Shown here: positions 1,363 through 63,564 of the stretch, in pieces
How positions within the stretch are numbered: position 1 is the stretch's first letter
How the letters are laid out: every line of letters starts with the position of its first letter
Origin: an uncultured virus (IMG/VR IMGVR_UViG_3300049793_000365)
Taxonomy: Duplodnaviria; Heunggongvirae; Uroviricota; Caudoviricetes
Length of the DNA stretch: 64,000 nucleotides
Reading direction: 5' to 3' (one strand)
IMG/VR virus record: IMGVR_UViG_3300049793_000365
Made by a program: the position numbers and the translations under genes
The notes under the pieces: generated by a model
What the model saw: the letters and a program-made list of their open reading frames with translations, nothing else
Told to the model about the DNA's origin: nothing
Databases searched by the model: none

Positions 1363-1394
1363 CAAATGTACGGATAATATTCCGGATAACCAAA
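1363..1394 (-). promoter_or_regulatory. Bacteroidota-type -33/-7 promoter
   Basis: minus strand TTTG-N20-TACATTTG, 6 nt before the 1356 start; spacer contains CGGA-ATATTA-TCCG. Confidence 0.8.
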
Positions 1395-1437
1395 AATTAG
1401 GTGGTTTTTTGCTTATATCAGGTTTTATATATAACAT

Positions 1438-1824
1438 ATGAAGAATTTAATGGTATTTGAAACGTTCGTAGATGATTATTATACAGAAATAAAGCGACTT
1501 AAGAAGGATGCTATTGATAAGTTACTATATGTTGGTACCACTCTAATTGATGATTTTGGGTTTGATTTATATAAAAAGGGCTTCTCTTTTGTCAATAAGA
1601 AGATAATTAATTACTACACAAATGATATAATTGAATTTTCACCTGAGTTAGCTGATGAATTAAAGAGAATGAAAAACAGACTCAAAGAATACAATATGGA
1701 TCTACTAATAGGTGTTGTAGTGGATGACCATGATAGGACAAGAATTGAATACAATTACAGCGATGAGTTTTGTAAATCTCTTATCGGTAAACGTGGAAAC
1801 TTCTATGTCTTTATTACTAAATAA
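1438..1824 (+). CDS. N-tagged putative head-internal protein, paralog family A
   Basis: MKNLMVFETF; TTATATATA 4 nt upstream; TLIDDFGF...ELKRMKNRL. Confidence 0.65.
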   Translation: MKNLMVFETFVDDYYTEIKRLKKDAIDKLLYVGTTLIDDFGFDLYKKGFSFVNKKIINYYTNDIIEFSPELADELKRMKNRLKEYNMDLLIGVVVDDHDRTRIEYNYSDEFCKSLIGKRGNFYVFITK

Positions 1825-1833
1825 ATTATTACT

Positions 1834-2100
1834 ATGAAGCATTTAAAAACATTCGAATCTTATATAAATGAGGAATTCTATTTGGGTTCTGATGAAGTTG
1901 TTGGTGTGACTTTTAAATTAAAGCAACCAGTTACTTGTGATGGTAAAACATTTGGTACAGAAGATACGTGGACAATTGATAAAGCTATTGATGATGCTCA
2001 TTACTGTACGTCAGACAAAGGAGATAAGGAAGTATTTCACACAGATATTATATTAGGTGATACTATTATGAGTACAGAAGATTCAGCTAAATTTCACTAA
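1834..2100 (+). CDS. N-tagged putative head-internal protein
   Basis: MKHLKTFESYINE. Confidence 0.7.
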   Translation: MKHLKTFESYINEEFYLGSDEVVGVTFKLKQPVTCDGKTFGTEDTWTIDKAIDDAHYCTSDKGDKEVFHTDIILGDTIMSTEDSAKFH

Positions 2101-2831
2101 TCCCACCAAGTATATAGTGTCTTTTTATCTCTATTTAATTCGAATGTATCAGCGTTACCATACATAGTTTGTAGCTCATCCATTTCGGAATCTGTTAATT
2201 CTTTTATGTAAAAGCCTTCTAACTGTACACGAGCATCTGGTCTATCAATTACCCTAAGACCATTGAATACTATTCTATTTTTATACTTTGCTAAATCAAT
2301 CATAAGCTCGCACGTAGTAAAAATACTATTAGCTACTTTTTCTGTTAACTCAGCCTCTTTACTCTTTATCAATTTTTCAATAATACTAAATGGTACTTTA
2401 TCAAATCTCAAAACATCCAACTCAAGACTATATGATAAATAATAAGGGTCTAGTATATCATCACTGGCTGAAAATACAAATGATACAACTATCTCATGAG
2501 AGTTTACATCGTGTTTAGTTACGAAATCCAATAATGGTTTGGCTAACGTATGTAACTTCTCTTCTAATCTAAAATAACCATCATCGTCACCAATTTTATA
2601 ACCCATCGATAATGTGATATCACAGTTAATCTTTTGCGTCAATCGAATAAACTCTTTAGCTATTTCGGGTGTTAGTTTAGACTTATCGCGTGTTTTAAAA
2701 GCACAAATAGTTTTTCTTATGTTATATATCTTCTCGGTGTCATACTGGTCAACAAACCATTGCATAGCCTCATCAATCTCTGATTCTGTTGTGTATGAAT
2801 ATGTTTCGTTAAAGCGTTTTAAATGTTCCAT
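2097..2831 (-). CDS. N-tagged protein, family A-like
   Basis: MEHLKRFNE; EAMQWFVDQY. Confidence 0.65.
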   Translation of the reverse strand: MEHLKRFNETYSYTTESEIDEAMQWFVDQYDTEKIYNIRKTICAFKTRDKSKLTPEIAKEFIRLTQKINCDITLSMGYKIGDDDGYFRLEEKLHTLAKPLLDFVTKHDVNSHEIVVSFVFSASDDILDPYYLSYSLELDVLRFDKVPFSIIEKLIKSKEAELTEKVANSIFTTCELMIDLAKYKNRIVFNGLRVIDRPDARVQLEGFYIKELTDSEMDELQTMYGNADTFELNRDKKTLYTWWD

Positions 2832-2832
2832 A

Positions 2833-3249
2833 TTAATAATATTTATAAGTATATCTTAAACTAAGATTTAGCTTCATTAACTTAAAATCAGTGATGCTAT
2901 CCAGTCTTCTGTAAAAATCATCAGCTCTTTCTTTATTGAATAGGTTTTCATAGCTAAATTTCCTGTTATTAGTTATGATGTCAATATCCAATCTATCAAC
3001 TGTTTCTCGTGTGTGATGAGCTTCTATCTTTTTAAAAAATCTAATCAAATCAAATTTAAATTCCTTTGCTGATATAGAAGTAGAATTAGCCGCGCCATCC
3101 AATGTTTGGTTATATCTTATCTCAAAGCAATTGTAATCAACTACTAGTTTAAAGTCATATTTCTCACAAAAATCATCGAATACCGCTCTGATATGAGCTA
3201 TATTTTCATATGTATCTTCATGTTGTTCAAACCTCTTTAAGTACTTCAT
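2833..3249 (-). CDS. N-tagged protein, family A-like
   Basis: MKYLKRFEQ; AVFDDFCEKYDF. Confidence 0.65.
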   Translation of the reverse strand: MKYLKRFEQHEDTYENIAHIRAVFDDFCEKYDFKLVVDYNCFEIRYNQTLDGAANSTSISAKEFKFDLIRFFKKIEAHHTRETVDRLDIDIITNNRKFSYENLFNKERADDFYRRLDSITDFKLMKLNLSLRYTYKYY

Positions 3250-3464
3250 TTATCAGTAAAATATTTGGATAAAACTATTTCAATAGCATTATGTAAATTA
3301 GACTCAAGTAATTTAGCTTCTTCTTCGTCAATATCAAGTTTCATTGGTAATTCAATATTAACAGAGATAGCTTTATCGCTGATATCTATTTGATATTGGG
3401 TACCTGGTGTCTGACACTCGGTTTTAACCGCCTCAAATGTATTGAAATTTTTAAGATTCTTCAT
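3246..3464 (-). CDS. N-tagged small protein
   Basis: MKNLKNFNTFE; first gene after TAATATATA. Confidence 0.7.
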   Translation of the reverse strand: MKNLKNFNTFEAVKTECQTPGTQYQIDISDKAISVNIELPMKLDIDEEEAKLLESNLHNAIEIVLSKYFTDK

Positions 3465-3468
3465 CTAC

Positions 3469-3477
3469 TATATATTA
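3469..3477 (-). promoter_or_regulatory. putative phage late promoter TAATATATA
   Basis: 4 nt upstream of the ATG at 3464; recurrent motif. Confidence 0.7.
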
Positions 3478-3506: not shown

Positions 3507-3757
3507 ATGATTATGAAATTAGAGCAATTTTTTACAATAGAAGAAAATGATTTAAGAGAGATAATAGCCGATTTATTGGTTAAACGTGGTCTTAAATTTA
3601 AGGATGGTATTGATGATATCACCGTAAGTATCAATACAAATAGAAACAGTATAGATGGTCCAGTTGAGATTGGTCGCACATGGGGTTATCTTAACTCAGG
3701 TGTTGTTATTCATTGCGAGGTTGAGAATATCTAAATAATTTATATACTATATATTCT

Positions 3758-3766
3758 TAATATATA
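3758..3766 (+). promoter_or_regulatory. putative late promoter TAATATATA
   Basis: 5 nt upstream of the ATG at 3772. Confidence 0.7.
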
Positions 3767-3771: not shown

Positions 3772-4587
3772 ATGAAGTATTTAAAACAATTCGAATTGTT
3801 CCATTCTAACCCGCATTATGATATTACTGAGAATCTTTATAGAGATAAACAGTTCTACTATTTCACATCAGAGAACGGGTGGGAATATGAAGTCGGTTTT
3901 TACCTAAAGGGCAATCAATACTTCTTTGGGTTTAAAGCAAAAAGACCAGAAGACTTCATGTTTGATTTCGCTATATTAACCAATGACAATCCTTTTAAAG
4001 TATTAGCTACTATCAAGTGGATATGCGAAGAGCATTATAAGAAATACAAAGGTGAGAAGTACGTATTCTCACTAACTGGTGAAAAGGAAATATCAGCTAA
4101 GAGAGAAAGGTTGTATATGAGAATATTAGATGGGCTTGATGATTGGAATATCGTTAAAGATCCTGAAATGTCTCGTTGGTATCTAACCAGAAAGAATGAT
4201 ATATCTGAGTCTCTTGAAACTACACATCCAATGTTAAAGCTAAAGAGAGACTTTAATATTGAGTTAGAAGTTGATAATGAATTGATACATTCAATTGAAG
4301 TAGTTGACCCAAGTGATGATTACTATTCAAATGAGTGGTGTCAAGTAAGAGTATGGACAAAAGTTATGAGAACTGAACAAACATCAGAGCTTAACAATAA
4401 AGAGGAAATTGCTCTTATAAAAGAGAAATATTTAACTGAGAGTACTGATAAGCTAAATAAGTTTCTTAAAAAGTTCTGTATGAAATATGAGTTTACATAT
4501 TTCGATGTTCATAATAGTCAAGCAAAAGATACCATGTTTACTAAGAATTACGCACTCATTAGTTACATCATACGGATAGGATTCTAA
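3772..4587 (+). CDS. N-tagged two-domain protein (C-terminal family B domain)
   Basis: MKYLKQFELF; C-terminal KKFCMKYEF. Confidence 0.7.
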   Translation: MKYLKQFELFHSNPHYDITENLYRDKQFYYFTSENGWEYEVGFYLKGNQYFFGFKAKRPEDFMFDFAILTNDNPFKVLATIKWICEEHYKKYKGEKYVFSLTGEKEISAKRERLYMRILDGLDDWNIVKDPEMSRWYLTRKNDISESLETTHPMLKLKRDFNIELEVDNELIHSIEVVDPSDDYYSNEWCQVRVWTKVMRTEQTSELNNKEEIALIKEKYLTESTDKLNKFLKKFCMKYEFTYFDVHNSQAKDTMFTKNYALISYIIRIGF

Positions 4588-4907: not shown

Positions 4908-5221
4908 TATTCTTCATCTACATACATAGCACATTCATCACAGTATGAACCTGGACCGAAGCAGGTAGCTCTGTTGAAGTTACACTCATCACACAAAGGT
5001 ATATAATATTTATCATATCCCATTTGATATCCACGCTTTATACCAGCTTGAATAGCAGATACGATAGTGGTATCAGTGATATCATTCAAATTTGGAACTC
5101 TTTTCTCTAGCTCTTCAAAGCATTTTTTAGCCTCATCAAGTGTGCTTTTTTCTTCTAATTCTTCTATCATTATTGTATATTTGTCCAAAAATAAGGATTA
5201 TTTACATAAAAACAATAAAAA

Positions 5222-5253
5222 TTTGCATATCCGGAATATTATCCGTACATTTA
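5222..5253 (+). promoter_or_regulatory. Bacteroidota-type -33/-7 promoter
   Basis: TTTG-catatccggaatattatccg-TACATTTA; ATG at 5259. Confidence 0.8.
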
Positions 5254-5258: not shown

Positions 5259-5561
5259 ATGGAAGACTCATCACAATCTAAAGGTATATTCGTTAAGCTT
5301 ACTAAAATAAGGGATTCTGAATCAGCATATGTTAAGAATCACATTGAGGCTGGCTTTGAAATAACTGGATATATTAAAGAAAAGCCAGTAGTTGGTGAAG
5401 TTATTTTCATATTAGACGAAAGAGGATATTCAATATTTACATCGAGTATTATATTGAACGTATTACCGAATAATAGATGGCAGACAAACAACTCAATCTA
5501 TGAAATGATTTGTATAGAAGAGTTTAGAGATAATCAAATAGACGCAATTATAAATGGATAA
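5259..5561 (+). CDS. hypothetical protein with C-terminal tag
   Basis: start reassigned to MEDSS after the promoter; ends FRDNQIDAIING. Confidence 0.7.
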   Translation: MEDSSQSKGIFVKLTKIRDSESAYVKNHIEAGFEITGYIKEKPVVGEVIFILDERGYSIFTSSIILNVLPNNRWQTNNSIYEMICIEEFRDNQIDAIING

Positions 5562-5790
5562 AACATTGATAGACGGTCTCTCTAAAGAGGATTTAATAAA
5601 GGTCATAGCTACTATGCACGATACCATTCAAGAATGGAATAATGGTTATGGTTTAGAAAAAGAAGAAGGTGATGCGCTTATTGAAATAGGTTCAGCTTGT
5701 ACACAATATTGTTCTAGTAAGGGTAGTTGGGGTATTCCAAACCCAACGCAAATAATCAGAGATAGTAAAATAAACAAAATCGTAGAATGA
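5554..5790 (+). CDS. hypothetical protein with C-terminal tag
   Basis: ends IRDSKINKIVE. Confidence 0.7.
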   Translation: MDKTLIDGLSKEDLIKVIATMHDTIQEWNNGYGLEKEEGDALIEIGSACTQYCSSKGSWGIPNPTQIIRDSKINKIVE

Positions 5791-6112: not shown

Positions 6113-6397
6113 ATGTTTGGTAGTAGAAGACAGCGAGAACAAGAACTTGATAATGAATTCAAGGTTAAGTCTCCACCAAAATATAAAGTAGGTCAGAAGA
6201 TATATTACATCGACGGTAATGATAATACCGCGATTAGAAGCATTGCGTGGGTGAATATCGCCACCGATGATTCCGGGAATAGACACTGGGTATATACCAC
6301 AAATTCAACCTTTGAAGAATTATTGGAAACAGACTTTGAGCCTTGGTTATCTAAGCAAGAAGTTAGAGATAGAAAACTAAATAACTTACTTAGTTAA
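6113..6397 (+). CDS. SH3/KOW-like hypothetical protein with C-terminal tag
   Basis: KYKVGQKIY; ends VRDRKLNNLLS. Confidence 0.65.
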   Translation: MFGSRRQREQELDNEFKVKSPPKYKVGQKIYYIDGNDNTAIRSIAWVNIATDDSGNRHWVYTTNSTFEELLETDFEPWLSKQEVRDRKLNNLLS

Positions 6398-6426
6398 TAT
6401 CATCAGAACTTCTTAATATATAGTTT

Positions 6427-6753
6427 ATGAAATATCTGAAAAGTATTAATGAACTACTCGATTCAAAGGAGATAGAAAGACAATTAGAGATTGAACTAGA
6501 AGATGATTATCTCGATAACATCATAGAGTATATCTTGGTTGGTACTAGTTCGACTGGTTATTGGGTTGAGTTAAATATTAAGATACCAAATGACTTAACA
6601 TTCTCTAAAGCTATATACTTAGATTATTTAATCAATCAGCTATTGAAATCCAAGATGGAAAAATTTTGTAGAAAATATAACTACGAACTTCTATCAATTA
6701 AGCCAGCGGCTACTGGTAACAATCAAATTCATGCTCAGATAAGAACTAATTAA
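6427..6753 (+). CDS. N-tagged protein, family B
   Basis: MKYLKSINE; KFCRKYNY; TAATATATA at 6414-6422. Confidence 0.7.
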   Translation: MKYLKSINELLDSKEIERQLEIELEDDYLDNIIEYILVGTSSTGYWVELNIKIPNDLTFSKAIYLDYLINQLLKSKMEKFCRKYNYELLSIKPAATGNNQIHAQIRTN

Positions 6754-7145: not shown

Positions 7146-7574
7146 TTAATTATGAATAGTGGTAACCAGTCTGATATACAGCGATGTTATGTTGTAATTG
7201 ATATATTTACCATCTTCTAAATCCTTTACTACATCAGATAGATTGGTAAAAACTGTTTGTGATTCATCACTTGAGTTAACAAACAATTGCATTGTTATTT
7301 TGGATGGGTCATAAAACATAGAACCATTATTTGAACGGACTTGTTTAAGTTTAGATATAACCCTTCTTATTTCCCTAAAGAAGTCTTCATTAACAACAAT
7401 TGATAAATTACTATTGTCAGTTTCAAATGTGCTATCAGATAAACCCTCGGTCAAATCATCAAGTTCATATTTAAGCATTAGTGATGATAAACAGTTAAAT
7501 ATTTCTGAGCGGTCAAAGCTATTACCAAACACATCTTCATATGTGGTCTCATTGAATTTTCTTAAATACTTCAT
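7146..7574 (-). CDS. N-tagged protein, family A
   Basis: MKYLRKFNE; NCLSSLMLKYEL...FFREIRRVISKL. Confidence 0.65.
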   Translation of the reverse strand: MKYLRKFNETTYEDVFGNSFDRSEIFNCLSSLMLKYELDDLTEGLSDSTFETDNSNLSIVVNEDFFREIRRVISKLKQVRSNNGSMFYDPSKITMQLFVNSSDESQTVFTNLSDVVKDLEDGKYINYNITSLYIRLVTTIHN

Positions 7575-8107
7575 ATCATTTGTGTTGTTAGATCCTTATA
7601 TGATTTCTGAAGTACATCACCAATACCATATAGATTGAATTCGTTATCCTTTTGCGCTCTTTTGTTAGCATATCCGAATAAGCCTTTGAATTTACCTCTA
7701 TTTTTAACGAAAATACAAGCTGTAATCATTGTGTTATCATCTTCGAATGATTCCTCATAGGGAACTTCAATAGTAACTGTTACGTTGAATTTCTCGTCTT
7801 CTGTATTAGTATCACTTAAAATATATTCAAAACATCTGTGATATTCTTTACGCTCAATTTTCATTTTCATTTTCGACACATCAGGAATCTCAACTTTTCG
7901 TCTACCCAACTCAGCTAATAACTCTGGTGTATAAACAATTGATTTAACCATCTCTCTGATTTGAGAAACGTCCACCTTGTAATTCTTATGATGCTTTTGT
8001 AATTGCGTATTACCAGCCATGAAATCCTTGAAGAATCTCTGTAAATCTTCGGTAGAAGGATTTGAATTTTCTTTTAAAAAGTCACTCCAATGTTTTAGGT
8101 TTCTCAT
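7571..8107 (-). CDS. N-tagged protein
   Basis: MRNLKHWSDFLKE; TAATATATA at 8113-8121 (minus). Confidence 0.7.
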   Translation of the reverse strand: MRNLKHWSDFLKENSNPSTEDLQRFFKDFMAGNTQLQKHHKNYKVDVSQIREMVKSIVYTPELLAELGRRKVEIPDVSKMKMKIERKEYHRCFEYILSDTNTEDEKFNVTVTIEVPYEESFEDDNTMITACIFVKNRGKFKGLFGYANKRAQKDNEFNLYGIGDVLQKSYKDLTTQMI

Positions 8108-8144
8108 AGTTGTATATATTAATTATAATCCGTATATTTGACTC

Positions 8145-10755: not shown

Positions 10756-10792
10756 AAGTGTATATATTAAGATGAGCCGCCAGAAAGCTAAA

Positions 10793-11239
10793 TTATGATA
10801 ACCAAACTTGAATAAGAGTTTTATTTGCTCTTTCGATGTGTCTTGTTGTAGTGAGATCCACATTTAATATACTATCGCATCTATAATGTACGTCATACCC
10901 GACATCAGCTACGAAGCGATACTTCACTGTAAATTCTTCACTGGCTTTCTTTTCAAATTTAAGAAGTAATTTAAAAATATTCTCAACATCTTTCTTACTA
11001 ACTTTTTCCAATTCTATTTTAAAAAGAAATTGGTTTAAAGTGTGGTCAAAACTTGATGTTGCTGACCAATCATCAATTAATTCTTGCCCAGCTTCATTTA
11101 TTAAAACTAAGTAGGAATTAGTCAATTTTTTGCGTTTATTAAAGTAAAGATTGGAAATCTTATTAACTTCAGTTCTTTCCTCTTCTTTGAATTTTTCAAA
11201 GTTCTCCTTAAATCTTTCGAATAATTGAATGTGTTTCAT
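10793..11239 (-). CDS. N-tagged protein, family A
   Basis: MKHIQLFERF; EAGQELIDDW; paralog of 26253. Confidence 0.7.
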   Translation of the reverse strand: MKHIQLFERFKENFEKFKEEERTEVNKISNLYFNKRKKLTNSYLVLINEAGQELIDDWSATSSFDHTLNQFLFKIELEKVSKKDVENIFKLLLKFEKKASEEFTVKYRFVADVGYDVHYRCDSILNVDLTTTRHIERANKTLIQVWLS

Positions 11240-11241: not shown

Positions 11242-11820
11242 TTAGTATTCTATTTCTGGGTACGGCGCTTCATCCCAGAAGTAAGCCGTTATTATTTTTA
11301 TATCCTTCTTGTATAACGGAACATAAATATCTATCGCATTTTGATTTTTATCCGTTGGTACTGAATCATCTAAGAAGGAGCTATCGTAGTGTAAAAATCC
11401 ATCATATCCAGTTACACAATCATATCCTTTAGATTTGACAGCATCCTCAAATCTTTTAATATAAAGCATATCATATGGATTAGCTTCTATTAAATCCATT
11501 CTATTTAATTCCTCAGACTTAAAAGTCCATTCATCTTTACTAAATGTGTATGTATATTCTATACCAACCTCATCCATTATAGGAATCCATTTTGATTCAA
11601 ATTCTGCTTTTGAATAAAGAGTTAGTGGATTTTTATATGTTATTTCAAGTTCAGTGACATATCCACTACAACCATTAGCATAAAATCCAGCCACATTCAT
11701 ATCCGTTGTGGTGAATAAGCTACTATCTTTTATATTTGTTAATAACTTCCCACCATGCCAAACAGTCTTTTTAACAAGACTGAATAACTCAAATAGTGCG
11801 AATGGGGTTATATGCTTCAT
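11242..11820 (-). CDS. N-tagged ADP-ribosyltransferase-fold-like protein
   Basis: VWHGG...LFTTTD...AGFYA...YKNPL...KGYDCV pattern of phage ART-like (ART-PolyVal-type) domains; MKHITPFALFE. Confidence 0.5.
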   Translation of the reverse strand: MKHITPFALFELFSLVKKTVWHGGKLLTNIKDSSLFTTTDMNVAGFYANGCSGYVTELEITYKNPLTLYSKAEFESKWIPIMDEVGIEYTYTFSKDEWTFKSEELNRMDLIEANPYDMLYIKRFEDAVKSKGYDCVTGYDGFLHYDSSFLDDSVPTDKNQNAIDIYVPLYKKDIKIITAYFWDEAPYPEIEY

Positions 11821-11834
11821 AGACTATATATAAA

Positions 11835-11937: not shown

Positions 11938-12069
11938 ATGGAGCAACTATTTCACATACTGGGGTTATGCCCAGACAGCTTAGGTCATATAGACTTGATG
12001 GACATATTCATTTGCTATTACGCAGATATACAAAATTTTATAACATTAATACGTAATTATAAGTCGTAA
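11938..12069 (+). CDS. small ORF (43 aa), not in the ORF track
   Basis: MEQLFHILGLCPDSLGHID...; stop overlaps the next ATG (TAATG). Confidence 0.55.
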   Translation: MEQLFHILGLCPDSLGHIDLMDIFICYYADIQNFITLIRNYKS

Positions 12070-12320
12070 TGACTAAAACTTGTATATGTGTAAAGGCGGA
12101 AGGCTTACCACACTTCGATACTATACGACCTTTCGTATTTGAGAATGGTTGTAAATATGATTACAATTATGATGATGAAATGGATGTTTATTTAGTGGAG
12201 TTTAGTGTATTGGGTAACATACCAATACCCAGTCGCATATTCAATAAGCATTTTATGGATATGGATAAATACACAGAAAATAAACGCGATAACAATATAA
12301 ATAATATTTTAAATGAATAG
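12069..12320 (+). CDS. SH3-like family C protein with C-terminal tag
   Basis: TCICVK...FENGCKYDY...FNKHF...KRDNNINNIL. Confidence 0.65.
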   Translation: MTKTCICVKAEGLPHFDTIRPFVFENGCKYDYNYDDEMDVYLVEFSVLGNIPIPSRIFNKHFMDMDKYTENKRDNNINNILNE

Positions 12321-12657: not shown

Positions 12658-13391
12658 ATGAAAACTAAAGCATTTATAGTTATAATCGCTGAGCCAACAC
12701 CAGCACATAATGAGGATAAAGATTTTACTTTAATATCCGCAAAGCAAATAGTAATGGCTTCTATTTTCAATTTATCTGATGATGATATGGATTTTAAAGT
12801 AGCATCTGAAATAAAGCCTATAAATTATGACATACTTGAGGGTTTAGATAACACGATTGGTGGTTGTTTAATTAGAACAACCGAGACAAAAGCTGGTACA
12901 TATTATACACGCTTTGATAACGCAGATGTTGATATGATTAGTAGATTTCTTAGTCATATAAAAACATTGAAGGTGAGAGAAGATGAAATGTCTATATTGG
13001 ATGCTGTAATTCAGAATCACCGAGGTAAAAAAGTTAATGAATTAATTAAATAGTATGCATTACAATGACCCAGAACAAATAGACGATAACTCACTTAAGT
13101 TGGTTATCTATACACACGGTGGTGATCCACTTGGTACTGTATTTGATATAACATCAATACAAGAGTGTAGACATTTTAGCCCTCGATTACTCACTAAAGT
13201 TATGAATATGCGAAAGCCAAGAGGTGGGAGAGATTGTTGGTATCAATGGTTCAATAAACCACAATTCAATGCTCTACCGCTTGAGAAATATTATTTGGTT
13301 TGGTTGGAGCAAACAGGTTGGGATGATATAACCATAATGGATATTACCGATGTAACTAACGACACTAATCAATTTTATCAATTACACTAAT

Positions 13392-13604
13392 ATGGATAGA
13401 GTAGTATTTTTAGAGGACCATGAATTCAATGGTAAAGTATATAAAAAAGGACACCAGTTCAATGTGACTGGTTCATCATATAGAGGTTTAGACCTGGAAG
13501 ATGATGATGGAAATAAAATACATGAAACGTTATTTATAAGTAGCAAATATAAATCTCTATCGGAAATACGTGATGAAAAATTAAGAAAAGATTTAGGATT
13601 ATGA
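13392..13604 (+). CDS. small SH3-like protein with C-terminal tag
   Basis: YKKGHQFNV...IRDEKLRKDL. Confidence 0.6.
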   Translation: MDRVVFLEDHEFNGKVYKKGHQFNVTGSSYRGLDLEDDDGNKIHETLFISSKYKSLSEIRDEKLRKDLGL

Positions 13605-13838: not shown

Positions 13839-14318
13839 ATGAAGTCATTGACTATTAACGATATTATACGTTTTCACATTCACTACTATGTTCGTGGATT
13901 AAATATCTATGAAGATAAGCGTATTATAAGTTATGTCAATGGTGTAGCGAGGATAAAGGGTGATAAGAGTATATATGCAGTTAGTATCAAAACATCTGAT
14001 GATAATAGCAAGTTAACAAGCTATATATGTACTTGTCCGACTAAGCATAGAATTTGTAAACACACGATAGCTACATTTATCTATCATATGAAAGGTGGAT
14101 ATAAACCACTCTCTGAATATGAAACATCTGTTCAATATGCTTACTTAGAGATTGAGTCTATGATAGACGTTCTTTATAAAAATAAAAGACAAGCTATGGA
14201 GAAAGTTTTACAATCTCTCAGTGAAGACAAGATTAATTGGAAGATGATTTCAAATAGAAATTTTGAGAAACACGGATTATTAATAACTGAATTAGAAAAA
14301 AGACTTGTACATGAATAG
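13839..14318 (+). CDS. SWIM zinc-finger protein
   Basis: CTCP-x5-CKH motif preceded by YAVSI. Confidence 0.8.
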   Translation: MKSLTINDIIRFHIHYYVRGLNIYEDKRIISYVNGVARIKGDKSIYAVSIKTSDDNSKLTSYICTCPTKHRICKHTIATFIYHMKGGYKPLSEYETSVQYAYLEIESMIDVLYKNKRQAMEKVLQSLSEDKINWKMISNRNFEKHGLLITELEKRLVHE

Positions 14319-14615
14319 TGAAATAAATACACTTGCTCGTAATATAATAAAAGACATTTCTTTATTTGATATAGAAAAGCAAAGAAGTTTATTTATGTGG
14401 ATATTTGATAATGCTGATGTTAAAGAACTTAGGTCGGACTTATTAGCAAATTCAGCATCTATGAAAGCCGCATTGGAATTAAGGGATGATTTTACTAAAA
14501 CGAGTAAAAACAAAAGACCACATATAAAAGCAATATCTACAGAAGAAGCCAGTAAAATATACTACGACTGTACTACAAAAATACGTGACGAAAAAATAAA
14601 CAAAATAATATCGTA

Positions 14616-14960
14616 ATGCGTGAGTTAGAACAATACACAGAACATAAAACTACCGAGTTTGTAAAAGAACTAAAGGGTAGATACTCTGAATTTCTATCAG
14701 ATAAATTTTTACAAGTTTACCTGGTTAGTTCTTTTATGGATTCATACCGGGCCAGACCAAATAGCGATTTAGCGAATACTGCTTATGCGTCAAGTGTTTT
14801 ACTATTCGAATCTTTACTTGAACATGGTTGTGGTGCTATTGGAAATGGCCACCACGTAGCCCAAATGTATTCTGCTATGTTTCCTCAAAAAACTATACAG
14901 GAGTGTTCTAATGAGCTAAAAGCATTCATTAGAGATAATAAACTAAGTGATATTTTATAA
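14616..14960 (+). CDS. hypothetical protein with C-terminal tag
   Basis: ends IRDNKLSDIL. Confidence 0.7.
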   Translation: MRELEQYTEHKTTEFVKELKGRYSEFLSDKFLQVYLVSSFMDSYRARPNSDLANTAYASSVLLFESLLEHGCGAIGNGHHVAQMYSAMFPQKTIQECSNELKAFIRDNKLSDIL

Positions 14961-15572
14961 TGAAAATAATCTGGGATAGAAATTCTACTGATTGGTTACA
15001 TCAGTTTATAACAAATGATATACCAGAGTTTAATCACTTTGGTGGTCAAACCATTTATAAAATAGGAGCAAAGTTTATCCTATCACAAGGCTCTGACTTA
15101 TGGATTGCTGATTGGACTTCTATTACATCAGGCTCAGCTTGGTCATTAACAAAAGTAATAGACCTACCTAAACTAATGAATGGTGGTTATAAGTTCTGGG
15201 AGTTTAAGTATGAGTCTTGGCAAAAGACTGGTTATTATTATAGATTTAACGTAGACAGTCGCTATATCGATTCTAAGAGTGATTTTGATAAATTCCCACA
15301 TAGACCAGGCGCACAAATAATAGTTGATGGTAAACTTAATGCTGTATCTAGTTTCTACAAAGTGGAAACACATACGATGTCTCGTGGGTATCTACCAAGT
15401 GTTCGAATATGTGAATCCAGAGAAATAGAAGAAAAGGCTATTATGGATATATTAAATGGCACTGCACCGAATTTAAGAACATTCAAAAACGAAGTTTTGG
15501 AGAATCCTGACACGAAGAAGATTATCTTGCGAGAACTTCAGCTTAATTCGATTGGCGTTTAATATATAGTAT

Positions 15573-15905: not shown

Positions 15906-17274
15906 TTTATACAAGATAGTCAACTTAGTGATGTTTTAAACTATAAGTGTCTTAGACAACTTATTTATGAAAACAATTATCACTTACATCACGGACGATG
16001 GTCAAGAGTTCGACAACATATTCAGTGCAAGAAGACATGAATGTGAATTAACACAACACACTTGGGAGTTCTACACAAAGAACATGGGATTACAGAAACA
16101 AATGGATTATACGACCCATATGCAATTCTGTAAGAAGTGTCAAAAGCAGGAAATACTTGAAAGAGAAGTAATCAATGCTGAGTTACACAATCGTTTCATA
16201 GTTCAGAATTAAACTACCACTAATCTAACATTAAACTACCACATGGATATTACAGTAACACAAATTTTCTACAAACCAATCGTTGAATTGGAAACTATCG
16301 ATATTTTCGGATTTAAATATATCCAGAGAACTCTATCACCAAATCTTTATGTAGTTGAAACAGAAAACGAAATTCCGGAGGGGTCTGACGTTGAGTTCAA
16401 ATACAATAAATTATTCTATACATTAGAAGGTGTTAGTACAGCTATACATGATGGTAAAACATTCATTCAGTGTAGCAACTGGACCGAATCTATGTTCTAA
16501 TGAAAGATGTAAAGATACTTGAGACTTATTTAGAAGATGTCAAGTTCGCGATATTCACTTATACTGGTTTAGAAGATCCAGTTGAGCCATTGAATATAGC
16601 AATTAGTTTATATACACTTGGTGAAGAATATCACGAATTTATTGATATGAATATGAATAACCCCTGGGTTCGTATAGTAACATCTAAGAAGTTAGATGAT
16701 ATAAAGGGTATGACAGAACCAGAATTAAAGCAATGCATCAGAAATAACCGCATAGACCACATTTTAGACTAATGGAACATTATTACATAGTATGGAGAAA
16801 TCCATTCTTCTCATATGCTCTACAAGGCGATGGTTACTTTGTTAAATATAAAGATAAACTATCTGATTGGTGGTCTACTGATTATAGAGATGCTGCTAAA
16901 TACAAAACTCTTGGTCCAGCTATTTCACGTTTAAATATAGAATACAATAAGGCTACTTCTATTTACAATTTTATAAAAGCTAACACACCTAATACAAAAT
17001 CAGCACACAGAGATTGCAGTATATCAAATGTGTTGGGTGAGTCAGTTGATATTTCGACTGTATTATCCTGGCGAGGAAGAATTGATAAGGTAAGTAAAGA
17101 CTACGAATTTCTTGGTAACGCGGAAGAAGAAGTCATTAAGCACATTGAGAAAACTATTATAAAAAATCACAATGCTATTGAATCGCGTATGCTTAAAATA
17201 GGTGAGGCTCCAATTGATATAGATTATACCACATCAGAATATCAGAATGAATTTGATAACTTTTTCGGATTATA

Positions 17275-46876: not shown

Positions 46877-47231
46877 TTAGAATGCTGAAACTAATTGTTT
46901 TAGTTGACTATCTCTTTTGTGAATAGTGTAAAGCTCAAGTAAAATATCCTGAACCTCTTTGCTGTTGTTAGAATAGTTAATTCTATCATCAACTCGAACA
47001 TTCACATGACCCTGTATGAAGTTTGTATAGGTACCAACCGAACCTCTTTCTAAAGTTTCAATAGTACACATATCATTCTCACGAGTAGTTGAAACGTTGA
47101 ATTGGTCTCTTTCTTTTTTATAATTAACGATATTACCTTTTAGGGTTTTCTCTATTTCGATAGCTATCATTTCTTTGTTTTTAGTAACAAAGTCAAAGAT
47201 ACCGTGTATTTGAATTATTGGTGACATATTA

Positions 47232-47263
47232 CAAATATAAGGATATTATTCCATATACGCAAA
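47232..47263 (-). promoter_or_regulatory. Bacteroidota-type -33/-7 promoter
   Basis: TTTG-N20-TATATTTG before the ATG at 47227. Confidence 0.85.
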
Positions 47264-47291
47264 TTTGAATAATATCCTTAATATATACTAC

Positions 47292-48784: not shown

Positions 48785-49315
48785 ATGAATTCATATGAAT
48801 ATCAAACAATAAGAGGTATGGGTAGAAAACTATATCTAATTGACCAAAGAGGTGGAAAGTGTGAGAAGTGTGGTTATTGTGAAAACTTAGGATCACTTGA
48901 CTTTCATCACCGAGATTCTAATGAAAAGGAAGGTAAATTAGATATGCGAACATTATCCAACTCCACAATGAAATGGATTCTATTAGAGTTTGAAAAATGT
49001 CAAGTTCTGTGTTCAAATTGTCATAGAGAGACGCACTACCCAGACTTAAATATAAATTTAGTTAGAACCAAAGTGAGTGAGTTTAATAACTATTTAAAAG
49101 ATAGATCCGTTAATCTACCAAGATGTGTAGATTGTGATAAGCCAGTGAATTATAAATCTATAAGATGCAGAGAATGTAAATGCAAATCTACCAGAAAGAT
49201 AGGAAGACCAACTATTGATATCTTATTAGAAGAAGTAAGACTAAATGGTAGAAAGTATTGTGCTAATAAATATCAAGTAACTGTGAGAACAATTGGTAAA
49301 TGGTTAATTTTGTAG
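48785..49315 (+). CDS. HNH endonuclease (homing-type) with zinc finger and C-terminal HTH
   Basis: CEKCG...LDFHH...CQVLCSNCH; CVDC...CREC; ANKYQVTVRTIGKW. Confidence 0.85.
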   Translation: MNSYEYQTIRGMGRKLYLIDQRGGKCEKCGYCENLGSLDFHHRDSNEKEGKLDMRTLSNSTMKWILLEFEKCQVLCSNCHRETHYPDLNINLVRTKVSEFNNYLKDRSVNLPRCVDCDKPVNYKSIRCRECKCKSTRKIGRPTIDILLEEVRLNGRKYCANKYQVTVRTIGKWLIL

Positions 49316-49561
49316 TAATAACTCTATCTGCTTTTCTCTATGTTCTTCTATGAAGGAAAAGTGGTTTAAGAAATACTCTTCATTCAATCTTATCACAGTA
49401 ATACCATTACCAGTACTTACATCATAACTAGTGTAACCTATATAGCCTTGAACCGGATCAGATGCTCTCACTAGTAGCTTGTCATATACATATGATTCAT
49501 TTTCTTTGAATACTATTTTTTTATTCTTATCAAGAACAAGTTTTGTGCAAATACATTTCAT
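49304..49561 (-). CDS. SH3-like family C protein with C-terminal tag
   Basis: MKCICTK...FLNHF...HREKQIELLL. Confidence 0.65.
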   Translation of the reverse strand: MKCICTKLVLDKNKKIVFKENESYVYDKLLVRASDPVQGYIGYTSYDVSTGNGITVIRLNEEYFLNHFSFIEEHREKQIELLLQN

Positions 49562-51355: not shown

Positions 51356-51441
51356 ATGTAATATATTTTATATAATTTGTCCAAATATAAGGATTTTTAT
51401 TTAAATTTACAAACTTATATCACCACGCAATATAAAACATT

Positions 51442-51804
51442 ATGTTTAAACGAATAATTAAAGCTATGTCAAAAATTACAATTAATGGAAATGTTATATC
51501 TACAAGTGGTAGAAATGTCGTTGTGAATAACGGAAAAGTATTCATCGATGGTGTAGATGTTACACCTGATTCTAAAACAATTAATATATCTGTTGAGGGT
51601 GATATTGATAAATTAGATGTCGATGCTTGTTCTAAAGTAGAAGTGGTTGGTAAAGTAGGGCAGATAAAAACAGCAAGTGGTGATGTTGAAGTAGATGGTG
51701 ATATATCTGGTTCAGTTTCAACAATGTCTGGTGATGTTAGATGCGGTGATGTAGGTGGTAATGTTACAACAATGTCTGGTGACGTAATGAGATACGGTTT
51801 ATGA
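51442..51804 (+). CDS. beta-repeat (DUF4097-like) protein
   Basis: repeated T(A/M)SGDV units. Confidence 0.65.
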   Translation: MFKRIIKAMSKITINGNVISTSGRNVVVNNGKVFIDGVDVTPDSKTINISVEGDIDKLDVDACSKVEVVGKVGQIKTASGDVEVDGDISGSVSTMSGDVRCGDVGGNVTTMSGDVMRYGL

Positions 51805-52076
51805 TAGAAATGATAAAAGAAGAACACGTCTATCTTGCTATGAAGGAAGTATTGGATGTGAATCGAGCTGATGTTGACTTCAATAAAACATGGATTGAAC
51901 ACGGGTGTGATGAATTAGATAATGTTGAAGTGGTTATGTGGTTTGAGTGCTATTTGAATATAAGCATCAATGATGATATAGCCATGACTTATATGGGCTT
52001 GGATAACAAAATATATGACCTACCTGGACTTAAAGTTAAGATGCGTCAAACTAAATTAGATGCTATTTTACCGTGA
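51801..52076 (+). CDS. acyl carrier protein-like protein lacking the phosphopantetheine Ser, with C-terminal tag
   Basis: GCDELDNVEVVMWFE vs canonical GADSLDTVELVMALE; MRQTKLDAIL. Confidence 0.75.
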   Translation: MIEMIKEEHVYLAMKEVLDVNRADVDFNKTWIEHGCDELDNVEVVMWFECYLNISINDDIAMTYMGLDNKIYDLPGLKVKMRQTKLDAILP

Positions 52077-52593
52077 AGTTTTGGGAAATGATAGACCGCT
52101 CAAGGAAGAGAAAATCTTTAGAGCGTATAAGACAGCAGTATTTAGGTAAGATAAACGAGATACAACAGAATATGGGCTACATTCATATGATGAGTTGGTC
52201 AGATTCCGAAAAGAGAAGTATGTTTGCTGCTTATCAGCAAGAGAAAATGGAACTTCAATCTAAAGCTGATAGTATAGAAATGGAAATAAGATTATTATAA
52301 TATGTGTGAAGAAGATTGGTGCGAAATGCTTGATAAAGCTACGTATAAAAACTATTTAGATAAGTTATCTGAATTAGAAGAAGCAACTGGGCGTAAGTAC
52401 TCAGTGACAAATAATACATGGCGCTCTGCTGGTGATACTGATAGAAATGGTTATGTTTTTATGGAAACAAATACATTGTTTATTAAGGGTGGTATAATTA
52501 AATATACTAAGCACGATGCGATGGGTTATATAAAAGAGTCTTTCGAGATTAGCATTGGTGAGCATAGAAACACACAATTAGAAAAGGTATTAG

Positions 52594-52908
52594 ATGCTGA
52601 TTAAAAGTAATAGAGCAATTAAATTTTTCGAGTTTATACTTGGAATGAAAATAGCCGCGATAGCAATATTCCCATTTATAATAGCACCGACATCTACTAT
52701 TATAAATGATAGATTATTGAATCACGAGAGAATACATCTTAGACAACAAATAGAAATGTTGATTATACCATTTTATATTGTCTATTTAATTGAGTATTAT
52801 AAGAAAGGATATTATAATATTTCATTTGAAAAAGAAGCATATGGTAACGAACATAATATGAACTATCTAAGTAGTCGAAAATTATTTTCGTTTCGCAAAT
52901 ACTATTAA
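52594..52908 (+). CDS. HExxH-containing hypothetical protein (zincin-like)
   Basis: LLNHERIHLRQQ...ISFEKEAY. Confidence 0.6.
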   Translation: MLIKSNRAIKFFEFILGMKIAAIAIFPFIIAPTSTIINDRLLNHERIHLRQQIEMLIIPFYIVYLIEYYKKGYYNISFEKEAYGNEHNMNYLSSRKLFSFRKYY

Positions 52909-53929
52909 TATGGAAAAACCATTCGTACCATTTTATAAACCATACGGTATGTCGGATGAAGAATTCGAATACGAAGTAAAGATTGCTGAACAAAAACTTT
53001 CTGAATGGGAAGACCATCAAGAGGAATTGCGTAAATCTTGTACGCATGAATTTATATCAAGAGAATATTTATCACAACCCTACGGGCATTGTTTATGTTG
53101 CGGTAGAACAATATTAAGCTGATGAGTTATAGTCAATTATTAGATAATTTCGAATTAGAACATCGCGTAGGTGGATGTTATGTTACCGAATATGTGTATG
53201 GTAAAAATAAGCTTTATTATACCAATGTGGAACAGATAACTGTCTATGAATATAGAGCATTAACTAATATTACACAAGAGTGTCGTTTAAATGATGAGGT
53301 GTTCAATCATGTACCTAAAAAGGTTCGTGAGCATATGGGTGATGAACCAAGAGACATATCATTCAAGGGTAGTTTATATGAGTTACAAAAACATCTAATG
53401 CTTCTATACCCACACAAAGGTCGTAATCAAAAAATAGATGATATTATAGATTATGGAAAAGAACGTTAAACAATATGCTAATTATTTAATTGATATGTAT
53501 CAAGATATTGGTGGTACAAAGAACTCATCAATATATCGAAGGTTAACTGATAAAGGTCTTGATATATTCAAGGTAACCGAGTTAGCTTGTGAGATTGAGA
53601 TTATTTATCAAAGAGAAGAAAAACTAAACACACTGCTTAATGAAAAGAGAAAAAGAACTATTCGATAATAAACAAGAAGCCATATACGGCTTTAGTAATT
53701 TTCTATCTTATAAATGGTATCGTAAATTATTTGGTGGTAAATGGCGCTTGTTGAAGTTTGGTAAAGATACACCATACATATACTTATTTGCGACATGGAC
53801 TAAACGAGACGACTCATGCTTCGAAGGTTACATTGAAACAATAGATGTTGAAGTATATCCTGAAACTGGTGTTGATTCTCGTTGGAAATTACGTAAACAG
53901 TTTATTAAAAATATACTAAGAATTAAATA

Positions 53930-54514: not shown

Positions 54515-54543
54515 TTTGTAAATATACGGATAATATATAGTAA

Positions 54544-54810
54544 ATGGCAAATAGAAAGATAGACAAATTTAAAAAGGCAACTGAAGTTGTCACTAAAAGC
54601 ACTAAGCTCATAATCCTTATCATTGGATCTATTGTTGCTATTGGATGTGCTACAATGTACGGATTAGCTGAACTTGGTGTAATCGGTGATGAAGAACAAT
54701 ACGATGAAGAGTACTATGATGAAGAAATTCCGTTGGATGATTCTACATACGTAGATGATGATTCTACCTATTATTATGAAGTTGTTGATGAAAATCAGAG
54801 AGAAGAATAA
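54544..54810 (+). CDS. late-type membrane protein with acidic tail
   Basis: one TM segment, D/E/Y-rich tail; TAATATATA at 54531-54539. Confidence 0.6.
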   Translation: MANRKIDKFKKATEVVTKSTKLIILIIGSIVAIGCATMYGLAELGVIGDEEQYDEEYYDEEIPLDDSTYVDDDSTYYYEVVDENQREE

Positions 54811-55214
54811 TGAAGTATTTGAAAGAGTTCGCTCATTGGATGGAAAATCCAATTAGTATTTCTGAGGTAAAAGAAGTCTTTCAAGAAATGATTGACTTGG
54901 GTATCAGTGTTAAACTGGTTGAATATAACGGTAAGCCTGAGTTATACAAGGGTAAAATATTAGGTATATTGAACGATGATTCTGAATACCAGGATAAACT
55001 CGTACCGCTTAGATATTATCAGGTTGTGTGTAGTGCTGATGCTGGTAACTACCCAGAGCTATTATCGTTATTAGATGCTGAATCAAATACGGGTAGTAGT
55101 TTTAGTCCAACCAATAGAATATTCAAGAAGCTCTCAGCACTTGGTATGGAGATAAGGAAATTTGAATTTTTAGATAAAGAAATAGCAATTGTAGAATTTA
55201 GATACTTTAGATAA
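54810..55214 (+). CDS. N-tagged protein
   Basis: MKYLKEFAHWME. Confidence 0.65.
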   Translation: MKYLKEFAHWMENPISISEVKEVFQEMIDLGISVKLVEYNGKPELYKGKILGILNDDSEYQDKLVPLRYYQVVCSADAGNYPELLSLLDAESNTGSSFSPTNRIFKKLSALGMEIRKFEFLDKEIAIVEFRYFR

Positions 55215-55717: not shown

Positions 55718-56358
55718 TTGAATTATAATTAATAATATCCGGAAGTTGTCTATTGTTAATAAGATGTTAATAACTTTAGATAATTTCCAAATCTTCTAAG
55801 TGATTTTTAAGTATTCCAGAAATTACATCTTCACCAATTAGATTTACTTCTTTCTCTAATTCGTCATACTCTTTCTGAGTTACCTTCTGGTTTGTTTGTA
55901 GTCGAGTAATAAGATTTTGAATCTTTTCTCTGCTTCTACTTTTATCTTCTTTTGGAATTTGATGCTCTTCGTTCTCAAGCAGGCTGTAACGAATATCATG
56001 AATATTCGCCATGAATGTTTTAACTGGGCATGGTACAATAGTACCGTCTTCTGTTAATACACGAACACAACTATCAACCATATCAAGAATGATATTTTGA
56101 TTAGCAGTAACAATCTGAAATTCTTGATGCTTTGGATTTGCAACAATCATAGAGATTAAATTACGTAACTGTGTAATTGGTAAATCACGCTCAGGAAATA
56201 GATACGTGGTTGGTGAATAAGCGATTGCTTTTTCTAACATCGCATATGTGTGATACGGTGCTACTAAACATCGGATGGTTTTCCCATCGTACATCATTTT
56301 AGATGTTGCTTCCTGATCCGGAGTCAGGTCAAATAAATTTTGAGGTATTTTCATAAAG

Positions 56359-56390: not shown

Positions 56391-56748
56391 TTTTTTGTAA
56401 ATTATTTTTTATCGGACATTAATTCTTTTATTTTCTTGTCGCGCTTTTCTTGAATTCCGATGTACTGTATGTTGAGATATAATACTTTCTTTTTACCGGA
56501 ACCTAAGTACACATCCACTCTTGGATTCTTAGCATCCAATTGAGTGTTTATTAAATCCTGTTTGTGTTTATACTTAGAGATATTAAGTGAGAAGTCACCA
56601 GTCAATGATGCCATTTCCTTTGTTAGTGCTTTCTTAACATGATTTCCAATGTTTAAATTCTTGATTGAGTTTAAACAATCCGTGTTAATTATCACTTCAA
56701 ATTTATTTGAGAAGGCTGTTATTTCAGTACGTGCTATATTCATGTCCA

Positions 56749-56780: not shown

Positions 56781-58409
56781 TACAATTTATTTAATATAAT
56801 GCTCATGTATATCATAATTGTATTTTACGACCAACAGGCATATAGAGATAATTCTCTATCAATGTTATTGACAGATAATAAGCTACCAGAGAAGTATGTA
56901 TGGTCTGGAAGTAGCACTCGTTTCACTGAAACAAGTAGTATAGGATTTTCTAAGGTTTTTAAAAATGAAGGCAGTGCTGTTCGATTCATTGATGAATTCA
57001 ATCAACATAAAACAAGAGATAGATATGATTTACTAAGAAATAAATACCTAACATATCGTAAGCTAACTAGACAGGAATGGGACTTAATTGTGGACAATGA
57101 GCAATCGAGATTGAAGTATAAATATGAAAAAGCCAACGAAAAGATAGAGAAGAAGAGACGTATGTTTAAGTAAGTTATTAACAATATAAAACTATATGAT
57201 ATTACTAAATATAAATGCTTATGGATAATATTCGAGTAACTCCAAAGAAAGGTGATAATGTTGAAATACTTCGTTTAGATATCTTGTGTAATAAACCAAG
57301 ACCTTTATTTGGTAGAATAACCCGCATTGATGGTTTCTACATCTATGTGAAGCCAAAATACCAAAGATATGAATGTGAACTCTACCAAAATGAGATTAGA
57401 ATACTATGACACATACATACGAATATAGTTTCAATAGAAAACTTAGCACTGCAATAACAACTCAAACTATTCGTCTACCTGATGATATAGAGTCTGTTGA
57501 GAATGTGATAATGTTAGATAAAGAAACGGGTGAAATCTTCGAAGTAGATGATTATATTAAGGCTTTCTCTACCAATGAAAAGTCAATGTTTGGATCTTTT
57601 CAATTCTCAATTGAAAAATTATACTACGCTACTGAGAGAAATCTATTTATCAGATTTCACACACCAAAATTTAATTATACCCACGCTATTATTGTCTTTA
57701 AATCTAAAGTATTTGATAGACAAGTTAAGTGTGAATTTCTATTAGCATAAACTTATAATAATATATTGGTATAATAAAAATTATGGATGAAGTTATCACA
57801 TTTAATTGTCAAGGTAAGGAATATGCTATCTCAATTGAAGAGAAGAAAGTATATCCTAGATTTTTCGGTATAATCGGTTTGTTGGAAATTGGGTATGGTA
57901 CACCAGTGGTTGTTAAGTCAATAACCTTCGATTTGAGAACAAATTACAAAAGCTTTCTGGGAATGAATATTAGCTGTATAAGAGATAGAAAGGAAAAGCA
58001 CAGCTATTCATTTGTTAAGGAATTTATATCTGAATTAAGTAAGTCATTAAAAAATAGTAATATTTCTGATAGTGATATCATTCACTATAAAGCAATATCT
58101 AATTCGCGCAAGAGATTATTTGCCCGCTTATTAGATGATAGTGGTTGGAAACTAATAGACTCTTGTGACGGTAGTTACTACTCTAAGACAACCGAATACA
58201 ACTCAGCTATGTTTGAACAAATCAGACTGTTTGGTGAGATATCAATCACAATCAATGTATGAGGTTCGTAAACATATTATTGGCTTTAATAATAGGCTTA
58301 TTTATTAGTCACACTACAATTACTGGGAATAGAATATATGTTGAGTACCCAATACTTGGGTTAGTGACATTCTTTTTATTTATAATAGTAGTTAGAAAGC
58401 GTAGATAAT

Positions 58410-59003
58410 TTAAGAAACAATATCACTTATCTTTCTGTCTCTATCATCTGATATAACATCAGCGATAAGATCCGCACCAAAAGCTTCTTTTACCAAGTCC
58501 ATGTGCTTGAAGATATTATTTTTACTTATGTGTTCTTCTAAATAGAATGGTTGATGTGCCTTAACCCATTCATATATATCATCTGGCTTTTCCCATTTAA
58601 TATCAATCACTTCTGAGTTCTCGAATGTTGGTAAAGTCATACTACCACTTCTTCTCATTTCCTTTACTATCTTAATAAATTTATTATCAACTTTATTATC
58701 TAAGTTGAGAGAGGAAATAATGATTTTACTTAAACTAGCTGATGATGGCATGAATTTAACGGTGCCATTAATTATTACGAGAAAGTATGCTCTTCGTATC
58801 ATCTGTACATCTTTACTACGATTGGATAATTTAGAATATTTATCCCAAATTTTATATATGTATTTTTTATTTAAATCATCAAATATAAATACATTCTTAA
58901 GATATAATCCTATTATATCGTAGAAAGGTACTAACGTACCATCATGCTTTATAATGGGTATTACTTTTATAATATCACCATCTTCTGGTTTATACCACAT
59001 CAT
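58410..59003 (-). CDS. possible gp32-like ssDNA-binding protein homolog with C-terminal tag
   Basis: WYKP...IKVIP...RAYFLV..GTVKF...PTFENS pattern; DRDRKISDIV. Confidence 0.4.
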   Translation of the reverse strand: MMWYKPEDGDIIKVIPIIKHDGTLVPFYDIIGLYLKNVFIFDDLNKKYIYKIWDKYSKLSNRSKDVQMIRRAYFLVIINGTVKFMPSSASLSKIIISSLNLDNKVDNKFIKIVKEMRRSGSMTLPTFENSEVIDIKWEKPDDIYEWVKAHQPFYLEEHISKNNIFKHMDLVKEAFGADLIADVISDDRDRKISDIVS

Positions 59004-61324: not shown

Positions 61325-61552
61325 TAGAAGTGAAGCGCAAAATATATTTCATATTGGATAAGGTAATGAATGTCATTGGATTCATTTGTATAGCACCAAT
61401 TTACGCATTTGCTTCTCTATTCGAAGATAAAGAATTCTCAAGACAAGCACAAGAATTAATGGAAGATGCTATCGAAGAGGCAGAGAATCCCAAGTCATAT
61501 AAGCGCAATAAGCAGTTAGAAAAATTATTAGACGATAAATAATATATACATT

Positions 61553-62128
61553 ATGCTGAAAAGATACACAGAATTCGTAACCGAGACCGTTTCAAACTTA
61601 TCTAAAGTGAGAAGCTTCCCAACCAATATGTATGAGATATACAAACTAAGTAAAAGCGACTTGGGTAAGTATTTAAATACTTGGTTTACTGGTAAACGAA
61701 TTATGTTATCAGATATTGAACAACACAAGGTTAAGTTTAAAAAGGGAACTTTAAAAGACTATTTGTGTCTTGATGAAGTTTGGACAGTAAAGCGAGTAGA
61801 TGATAAAACAAGTCAAAGATTATACAATCGCGACATCAATCCTATATCAATTATAATAATGGCACCAGCTAGTTCTAAATTCATAGAAGACGAGGCATTC
61901 AAAAGAAATGAAGCTGGTGAAACACTTTATAATATGAAGTGTATGATTCACTCGGTAGATGATTCTTCGTTCGGTATTTGGTTCAATGGAAGACCTCTTT
62001 CAGAATTAGAACCAGTTAAACACGAAATGATGAAGTGGGTTAATTCTAAACCAATTATTAATGGTGATGAATTTATCAATAAATGTATTGAGTTAGGAGC
62101 AGAAGAAGATTCAATCGATTATAACTAA
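61553..62128 (+). CDS. N-tagged protein
   Basis: MLKRYTEFVTE, very close to the T4 CTS MKTYQEFIAE; TAATATATA at 61540-61548. Confidence 0.7.
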   Translation: MLKRYTEFVTETVSNLSKVRSFPTNMYEIYKLSKSDLGKYLNTWFTGKRIMLSDIEQHKVKFKKGTLKDYLCLDEVWTVKRVDDKTSQRLYNRDINPISIIIMAPASSKFIEDEAFKRNEAGETLYNMKCMIHSVDDSSFGIWFNGRPLSELEPVKHEMMKWVNSKPIINGDEFINKCIELGAEEDSIDYN

Positions 62129-62406
62129 TTCCAGCAGATATTGAATTCTTTCAATTTCTTATTGCGAAGCATCGTCATTAAATAGTATTCTATCTCTTCT
62201 GTGTTATCAGCTATTTCGATTACTACACCAGACATGATATAAATAAGCTTAGGTGAACTATTTTCACGAAAGTATATATCATCATCACCATCACGATAAA
62301 CCCAGTCACCGGCTGATACCTCACATGGGTCATATACAGAACAGTACTTCGATTCAACGAGTTGTTTGAACCCGATAGATTTTAATATTTTAACAATGTC
62401 CGACAT

Positions 62407-62751
62407 TTAGTTTACAATAATACTAATTTGTTCGTTACGATGTGCAGATATATCTAAAAAATATTTGTGAAATAAATGAACACTGTTAATATCCCATAAG
62501 ATTGGTAGCTTACCAGCTAGTATGTCAGCCTCTTGCTTTCTATCGAAATCATTGACCATTCCTTCCCAATCTGCTGGATTATCTAACTTAAGAAAGTAGT
62601 CAGGAAAGTTACCAACAGATACCCAACAACTTGTGTATTTCGTGTGGATATCTTCTTGTTTATCATCAGATGCTATCAGATAAGAATAATTCTCACCAAC
62701 TAAAAAGGAAACACCATAACCATCAAACTGTTTTATACATCTACAAGTCAT
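62407..62751 (-). CDS. SH3-like family C protein with C-terminal tag
   Basis: CRCIKQF...FLVGENYSY...FHKYF...HRNEQISII. Confidence 0.65.
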   Translation of the reverse strand: MTCRCIKQFDGYGVSFLVGENYSYLIASDDKQEDIHTKYTSCWVSVGNFPDYFLKLDNPADWEGMVNDFDRKQEADILAGKLPILWDINSVHLFHKYFLDISAHRNEQISIIVN

Positions 62752-62990
62752 AATATAGAGTTTATTTTCTCATCCCTGTGACAAGACATACATAGATTAT
62801 CTCTATCTCTACAATCTACACAAGCAGTAAAATAATGCTTACAGTCATTACATTCACAAGTTCGAGTAACACCTTCCTTATTACAGAAAATACACACAGG
62901 TTCTACCCTATTAATCGATATGATAGTATCACATGATTTTAGCTTATTCATAGAATCGCGTATTGATTCCGAAAAGGTAGACAACAACAT
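62748..62990 (-). CDS. Cys-rich zinc-finger protein with C-terminal tag
   Basis: four CxxC pairs; HRDEKINSIL. Confidence 0.65.
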   Translation of the reverse strand: MLLSTFSESIRDSMNKLKSCDTIISINRVEPVCIFCNKEGVTRTCECNDCKHYFTACVDCRDRDNLCMSCHRDEKINSIL

Positions 62991-63189
62991 TACGCGAGAA
63001 CAGATTTGATTTTCTTATCTCTCATAGCTATTTTACCACATAGTAGTTTTACTACGTCACCTGGTATTTTTTCATTCTTCTCGCAGTAGTCATGTAACTC
63101 TTCGAGTGTGATTATAGATTCACCTTGGTATATTAAATTGTGATTATCATCAATTGTGATACCTTCCATTCCAAATAGTCCCATATTTA

Positions 63190-63501
63190 TTAGTTTATTA
63201 GTTCGTCTAACTGTATGTTGCGATACTCAATAACATCCATGAAGCGATATTTAAAATTATCATGTGATAGTCTAACCAAACCACAATCGCTATTAGGATC
63301 TAATAGAAGCTCATCTATTGACTTATAATATGTATAATACTCACCTTCTTCGAATACGACAGTAGATGATTGTGTATCGGTATGATATGACCGAATACAA
63401 ACACATTTGCTTTCTATTAACTGTTGTTGCATCACTAATTTATAGTTAAGTTGTCCTGAAAGGTTGGTTCTGTATAGTGAAATTAATAGACTGTGTATCA
63501 A
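63190..63501 (-). CDS. SH3-like family C protein with C-terminal tag
   Basis: KCVCIRSY...FEEGEYYTY...YRNIQLDELI. Confidence 0.65.
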   Translation of the reverse strand: MIHSLLISLYRTNLSGQLNYKLVMQQQLIESKCVCIRSYHTDTQSSTVVFEEGEYYTYYKSIDELLLDPNSDCGLVRLSHDNFKYRFMDVIEYRNIQLDELIN

Positions 63502-63564
63502 TGACTTATTTTAATAGAATGTTATTAACATAAATTTTAACACTTAAATCCATATATTTGGACT

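What the first reader, a model, noticed from the sequence alone, without database searches (positions are those of the whole stretch)
1363..63564. The two tags are mutually exclusive and each tracks a promoter class
Seen: none of the 27 N-tagged proteins carries the C-terminal RDxK tag. C-tagged genes mostly lie in units headed by host-type -33/-7 promoters or the AACT-N15-16-ATATA motif, and none is the first gene after TAATATATA. The two classes are finely interleaved, often as back-to-back promoters (8113/8133, 41705/41744, 47232/47279, and 54519/54531 overlapping). Inference: each accessory gene carries a timing code (promoter) and a matching address code (peptide tag), late/head versus early/unknown destination. 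This would let new cargo domains be plugged into either route.
Basis: partly seen in the sequence, partly recalled or inferred. Interest (0 to 1): 0.85.

Follow-up and report, generated by a model that had tools for sequence, protein, structure and literature searches.

The report
Two peptide tags sort phage proteins
In this piece of a giant soil phage, about half of the small unknown genes carry one of two short peptide tags that never occur together: one looks like phage T4's signal for packing proteins into the head and sits only behind late promoters, and the other is an unexplained tail motif on early genes.

Summary
I called 158 genes. Of these, 27 start with M-K-[HY]-[LI]-K-x-[FY]-[EN]-x-[FY] (22 by score, 5 variants). 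Another 54 end with R-[DEN]-x-[KQ]-[IL]-x-x-[LI]-[LIV] plus 0-7 residues. None has both tags (9.2 expected, P=3e-6). Both motifs are conserved as protein, not as DNA, and sit on mostly unrelated bodies.

Nearest upstream promoter:
- N-tag: 26 late-type (AATATATA), 1 AACT-type.
- C-tag: 35 host-type -33/-7, 9 AACT-type, 7 unassigned, 3 late-type (never the first gene).

In two related huge phages (508 and 640 kb) the tags are again exclusive. AATATATA precedes half of the N-tagged genes and under 2% of the C-tagged genes. It also precedes the major capsid gene in both relatives, and the portal and head-protease genes in the 508-kb genome.

The N-tag resembles T4's 10-residue capsid targeting sequence (MKTYQEFIAE), with hydrophobic residues at positions 4 and 7. 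I read it as a head-packaging signal, greatly expanded here (about 0.65). The C-tag marks about a third of the early small proteins. Its partner is unknown; a shared docking or degradation handle is my best guess.

- "Each gene" is overstated: 77 genes have no tag.
- No N-to-C tag switches were found.

The parts
1438..1824 (+). N-tagged gene MKNLMVFETF
   Evidence: L site 4 nt upstream
1834..2100 (+). N-tagged gene MKHLKTFESY (second in L unit)
2097..2831 (-). N-tagged gene MEHLKRFNET (third in L unit)
2833..3249 (-). N-tagged gene MKYLKRFEQH (second in L unit)
3246..3464 (-). N-tagged gene MKNLKNFNTF
3507..3734 (+). N-tag variant M(IM)KLEQFFTIE behind an AACT-type site
3772..4587 (+). N-tagged gene MKYLKQFELF
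6427..6753 (+). N-tagged gene MKYLKSINEL
7146..7574 (-). N-tagged gene MKYLRKFNET (second in L unit)
7571..8107 (-). N-tag variant MRNLKHWSDF
10793..11239 (-). N-tagged gene MKHIQLFERF (second in L unit)
11242..11820 (-). N-tagged gene MKHITPFALF
21572..22333 (+). N-tag variant MKIKLYSQFC
22323..22739 (-). N-tagged gene MKLLKKFRDY
24675..25214 (-). N-tagged gene MKHLESYNGF
26253..26753 (+). N-tagged gene MKHIQLFESF
32826..33167 (+). N-tagged gene MKHLKTYEKY
36207..36599 (-). N-tagged gene MKHLKHFNKF
41757..42236 (+). N-tagged gene MKHLRTFESH
44564..44971 (+). N-tagged gene MKHLKKFENI
44972..45427 (+). N-tagged gene MKYLKLFESF (second in L unit)
45405..45872 (-). N-tagged gene MRYIKSYKLF
46170..46373 (+). 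N-tagged gene MKNLKSIKEH
46373..46876 (+). N-tagged gene MKHLKLFEEY (second in L unit)
47292..47789 (+). N-tag variant MKLKLFEEFT (one residue shorter)
54810..55214 (+). N-tagged gene MKYLKEFAHW (second in L unit)
61553..62128 (+). N-tag variant MLKRYTEFVT. Its 42%-identical homolog in L020 lies at the locus's MKHLKLFEELTN site.
629..1006 (-). C-tagged gene RDIKLEELC
5259..5561 (+). C-tagged gene RDNQIDAII (first after H)
5554..5790 (+). C-tagged gene RDSKINKIV
6113..6397 (+). C-tagged gene RDRKLNNLL
12069..12320 (+). C-tagged gene RDNNINNIL
12658..13053 (+). C-tagged gene RGKKVNELI
13392..13604 (+). C-tagged gene RDEKLRKDL
14305..14616 (+). C-tagged gene RDEKINKII
14616..14960 (+). C-tagged gene RDNKLSDIL
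14960..15562 (+). C-tagged gene RELQLNSIG
16500..16772 (+). C-tagged gene RNNRIDHIL. Its nearest scored promoter is L, three genes upstream.
17275..17694 (+). C-tagged gene RDKNINDIL. Its nearest scored promoter is L, five genes upstream.
18077..18451 (-). C-tagged gene RDKRIESIV
18441..18797 (-). C-tagged gene RNNKINNIT
18794..19015 (-). C-tagged gene RQKKLKKLL
19008..19313 (-). C-tagged gene RDSKIDNII
19313..19546 (-). C-tagged gene RKSQLNKLL
19548..19967 (-). C-tagged gene RELELKKIL
19954..20154 (-). C-tagged gene RDAKLNQLL
20377..20766 (-). C-tagged gene RDYKLKRLI
20747..21019 (-). C-tagged gene RDFKLSEIL
23164..23481 (+). C-tagged gene RDIKIDTIT (M unit)
23712..23969 (+). C-tagged gene RDKQIRKII (M unit)
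23969..24682 (+). C-tagged gene RHEKLEKLV (M unit)
27733..28092 (+). C-tagged gene RDKKIKKLI (no promoter assigned)
28092..28514 (+). C-tagged gene RDQKIDEIT, with a second internal copy REEKINTII at residue 70
28515..28898 (+). C-tagged gene RDLKLKELA, with a tag-like RDCKINDVL at residue 23
29142..29447 (-). C-tagged gene RIKKLEEIG
32470..32745 (-). C-tagged gene REKRLKEVL (first after H)
35204..35659 (-). C-tagged gene RDEKINTIL
35659..35895 (-). C-tagged gene RGEQLDKLI
35892..36170 (-). C-tagged gene RGEKLDALL (first after H)
37178..37462 (+). C-tagged gene RENKLKAIL (M unit)
37459..37785 (+). C-tagged gene RESKIDQIF (M unit)
37782..38063 (+). C-tagged gene RNLKIESIL (M unit)
39049..39324 (+). 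C-tagged gene REEKIDKLF (first after H; hydrophobic N-terminus)
39723..40130 (-). C-tagged gene RQNNLDILV
40132..40428 (-). C-tagged gene RDDKINDLL
42289..42627 (+). C-tagged gene RDIKLNQVL. It lies behind N-tagged 41757, with a 52-nt gap that holds AACT-N16-ATATAC.
42650..42826 (+). C-tagged gene RDRLIDKIL (first after H)
43383..43709 (+). C-tagged gene REKKLEELL
46877..47227 (-). C-tagged gene RDSQLKQLV (first after H)
47781..48443 (-). C-tagged gene RGSKLEEVL
49304..49561 (-). C-tagged gene REKQIELLL
51801..52076 (+). C-tagged gene RQTKLDAIL (M unit)
52302..52604 (+). C-tagged gene RNTQLEKVL (M unit)
53122..53469 (+). C-tagged gene RNQKIDDII (M unit)
56402..56743 (-). C-tagged gene RDKKIKELM (first after H)
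58410..59003 (-). C-tagged gene RDRKISDIV
61330..61542 (+). C-tagged gene RNKQLEKLL (first after H; hydrophobic N-terminus)
62407..62751 (-). C-tagged gene RNEQISIIV
62748..62990 (-). C-tagged gene RDEKINSIL
62990..63184 (-). C-tagged gene RDKKIKSVL
63190..63501 (-). C-tagged gene RNIQLDELI
1426..1433 (+). late-type site TATATATA, ATG 4 nt on
3759..3766 (+). late-type site AATATATA
6415..6422 (+). late-type site AATATATA
15561..15568 (+). late-type site AATATATA before the untagged GGACT-family gene
21558..21565 (+). late-type site AATATATA
26240..26247 (+). late-type site TATATATA
32812..32819 (+). late-type site AATATATA
41745..41752 (+). late-type site AATATATA, back to back with H at 41705
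44551..44558 (+). late-type site AATATATA
46158..46165 (+). late-type site AATATATA
47280..47287 (+). late-type site AATATATA, back to back with H at 47232
54532..54539 (+). late-type site AATATATA, overlapping H at 54519
61541..61548 (+). late-type site AATATATA
45877..45884 (-). late-type site AATATATA
36604..36611 (-). late-type site AATATATA
35198..35205 (-). late-type site AATATATA before untagged 34390-35190
33598..33605 (-). late-type site AATATATA before untagged 33164-33592
26225..26232 (-). late-type site AATATATA before untagged 25513-26220
25221..25228 (-). late-type site AATATATA
22744..22751 (-). late-type site AATATATA
11825..11832 (-). late-type site TATATATA
10761..10768 (-). 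late-type site AATATATA before the 711-aa gene (MRYLNSPNKD)
8113..8120 (-). late-type site AATATATA, back to back with H ending at 8140
3469..3476 (-). late-type site AATATATA
5218..5253 (+). host-type -33/-7 promoter, 30.8 bits
8105..8140 (+). host-type -33/-7 promoter, 25.0 bits
11893..11928 (+). host-type -33/-7 promoter, 21.2 bits
39009..39044 (+). host-type -33/-7 promoter, 29.0 bits
42610..42645 (+). host-type -33/-7 promoter, 19.5 bits
61289..61324 (+). host-type -33/-7 promoter, 22.3 bits
61248..61283 (-). host-type -33/-7 promoter, 31.2 bits
56749..56784 (-). host-type -33/-7 promoter, 17.1 bits
56359..56394 (-). host-type -33/-7 promoter, 30.5 bits
54519..54554 (-). host-type -33/-7 promoter, 30.3 bits
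51382..51417 (-). host-type -33/-7 promoter, 22.8 bits
50138..50173 (-). host-type -33/-7 promoter, 17.9 bits
48728..48763 (-). host-type -33/-7 promoter, 21.8 bits, before tRNA-Met
47232..47267 (-). host-type -33/-7 promoter, 28.7 bits
44150..44185 (-). host-type -33/-7 promoter, 23.0 bits
41705..41740 (-). host-type -33/-7 promoter, 31.6 bits, before the RNA ligase gene
36175..36210 (-). host-type -33/-7 promoter, 33.2 bits
32775..32810 (-). host-type -33/-7 promoter, 22.6 bits
32438..32473 (-). host-type -33/-7 promoter, 34.2 bits
31248..31283 (-). host-type -33/-7 promoter, 17.8 bits
27678..27713 (-). host-type -33/-7 promoter, 21.0 bits
21481..21516 (-). host-type -33/-7 promoter, 30.6 bits
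7105..7140 (-). host-type -33/-7 promoter, 29.6 bits
1363..1398 (-). host-type -33/-7 promoter, 28.2 bits
3482..3506 (+). AACT-N15-TATATA site directly before the start at 3507
22787..22811 (+). AACT-N15/16-ATATA site, 6 nt before the start at 22818
36614..36639 (+). AACT-N15/16-ATATAAT site, 6 nt before the start at 36646
38484..38508 (+). AACT-N15/16-ATATA site, 19 nt before the start at 38528
51412..51436 (+). AACT-N15/16-ATATAAA site, 5 nt before the start at 51442
57190..57215 (+). AACT-N15/16-ATATAAA site at the start at 57215
57750..57775 (+). AACT-N16-TATAAT site, 7 nt before the start at 57783
55722..55747 (-). AACT-N16-TATAAT site, 4 nt before the Lys/Ala-rich gene 55265-55717

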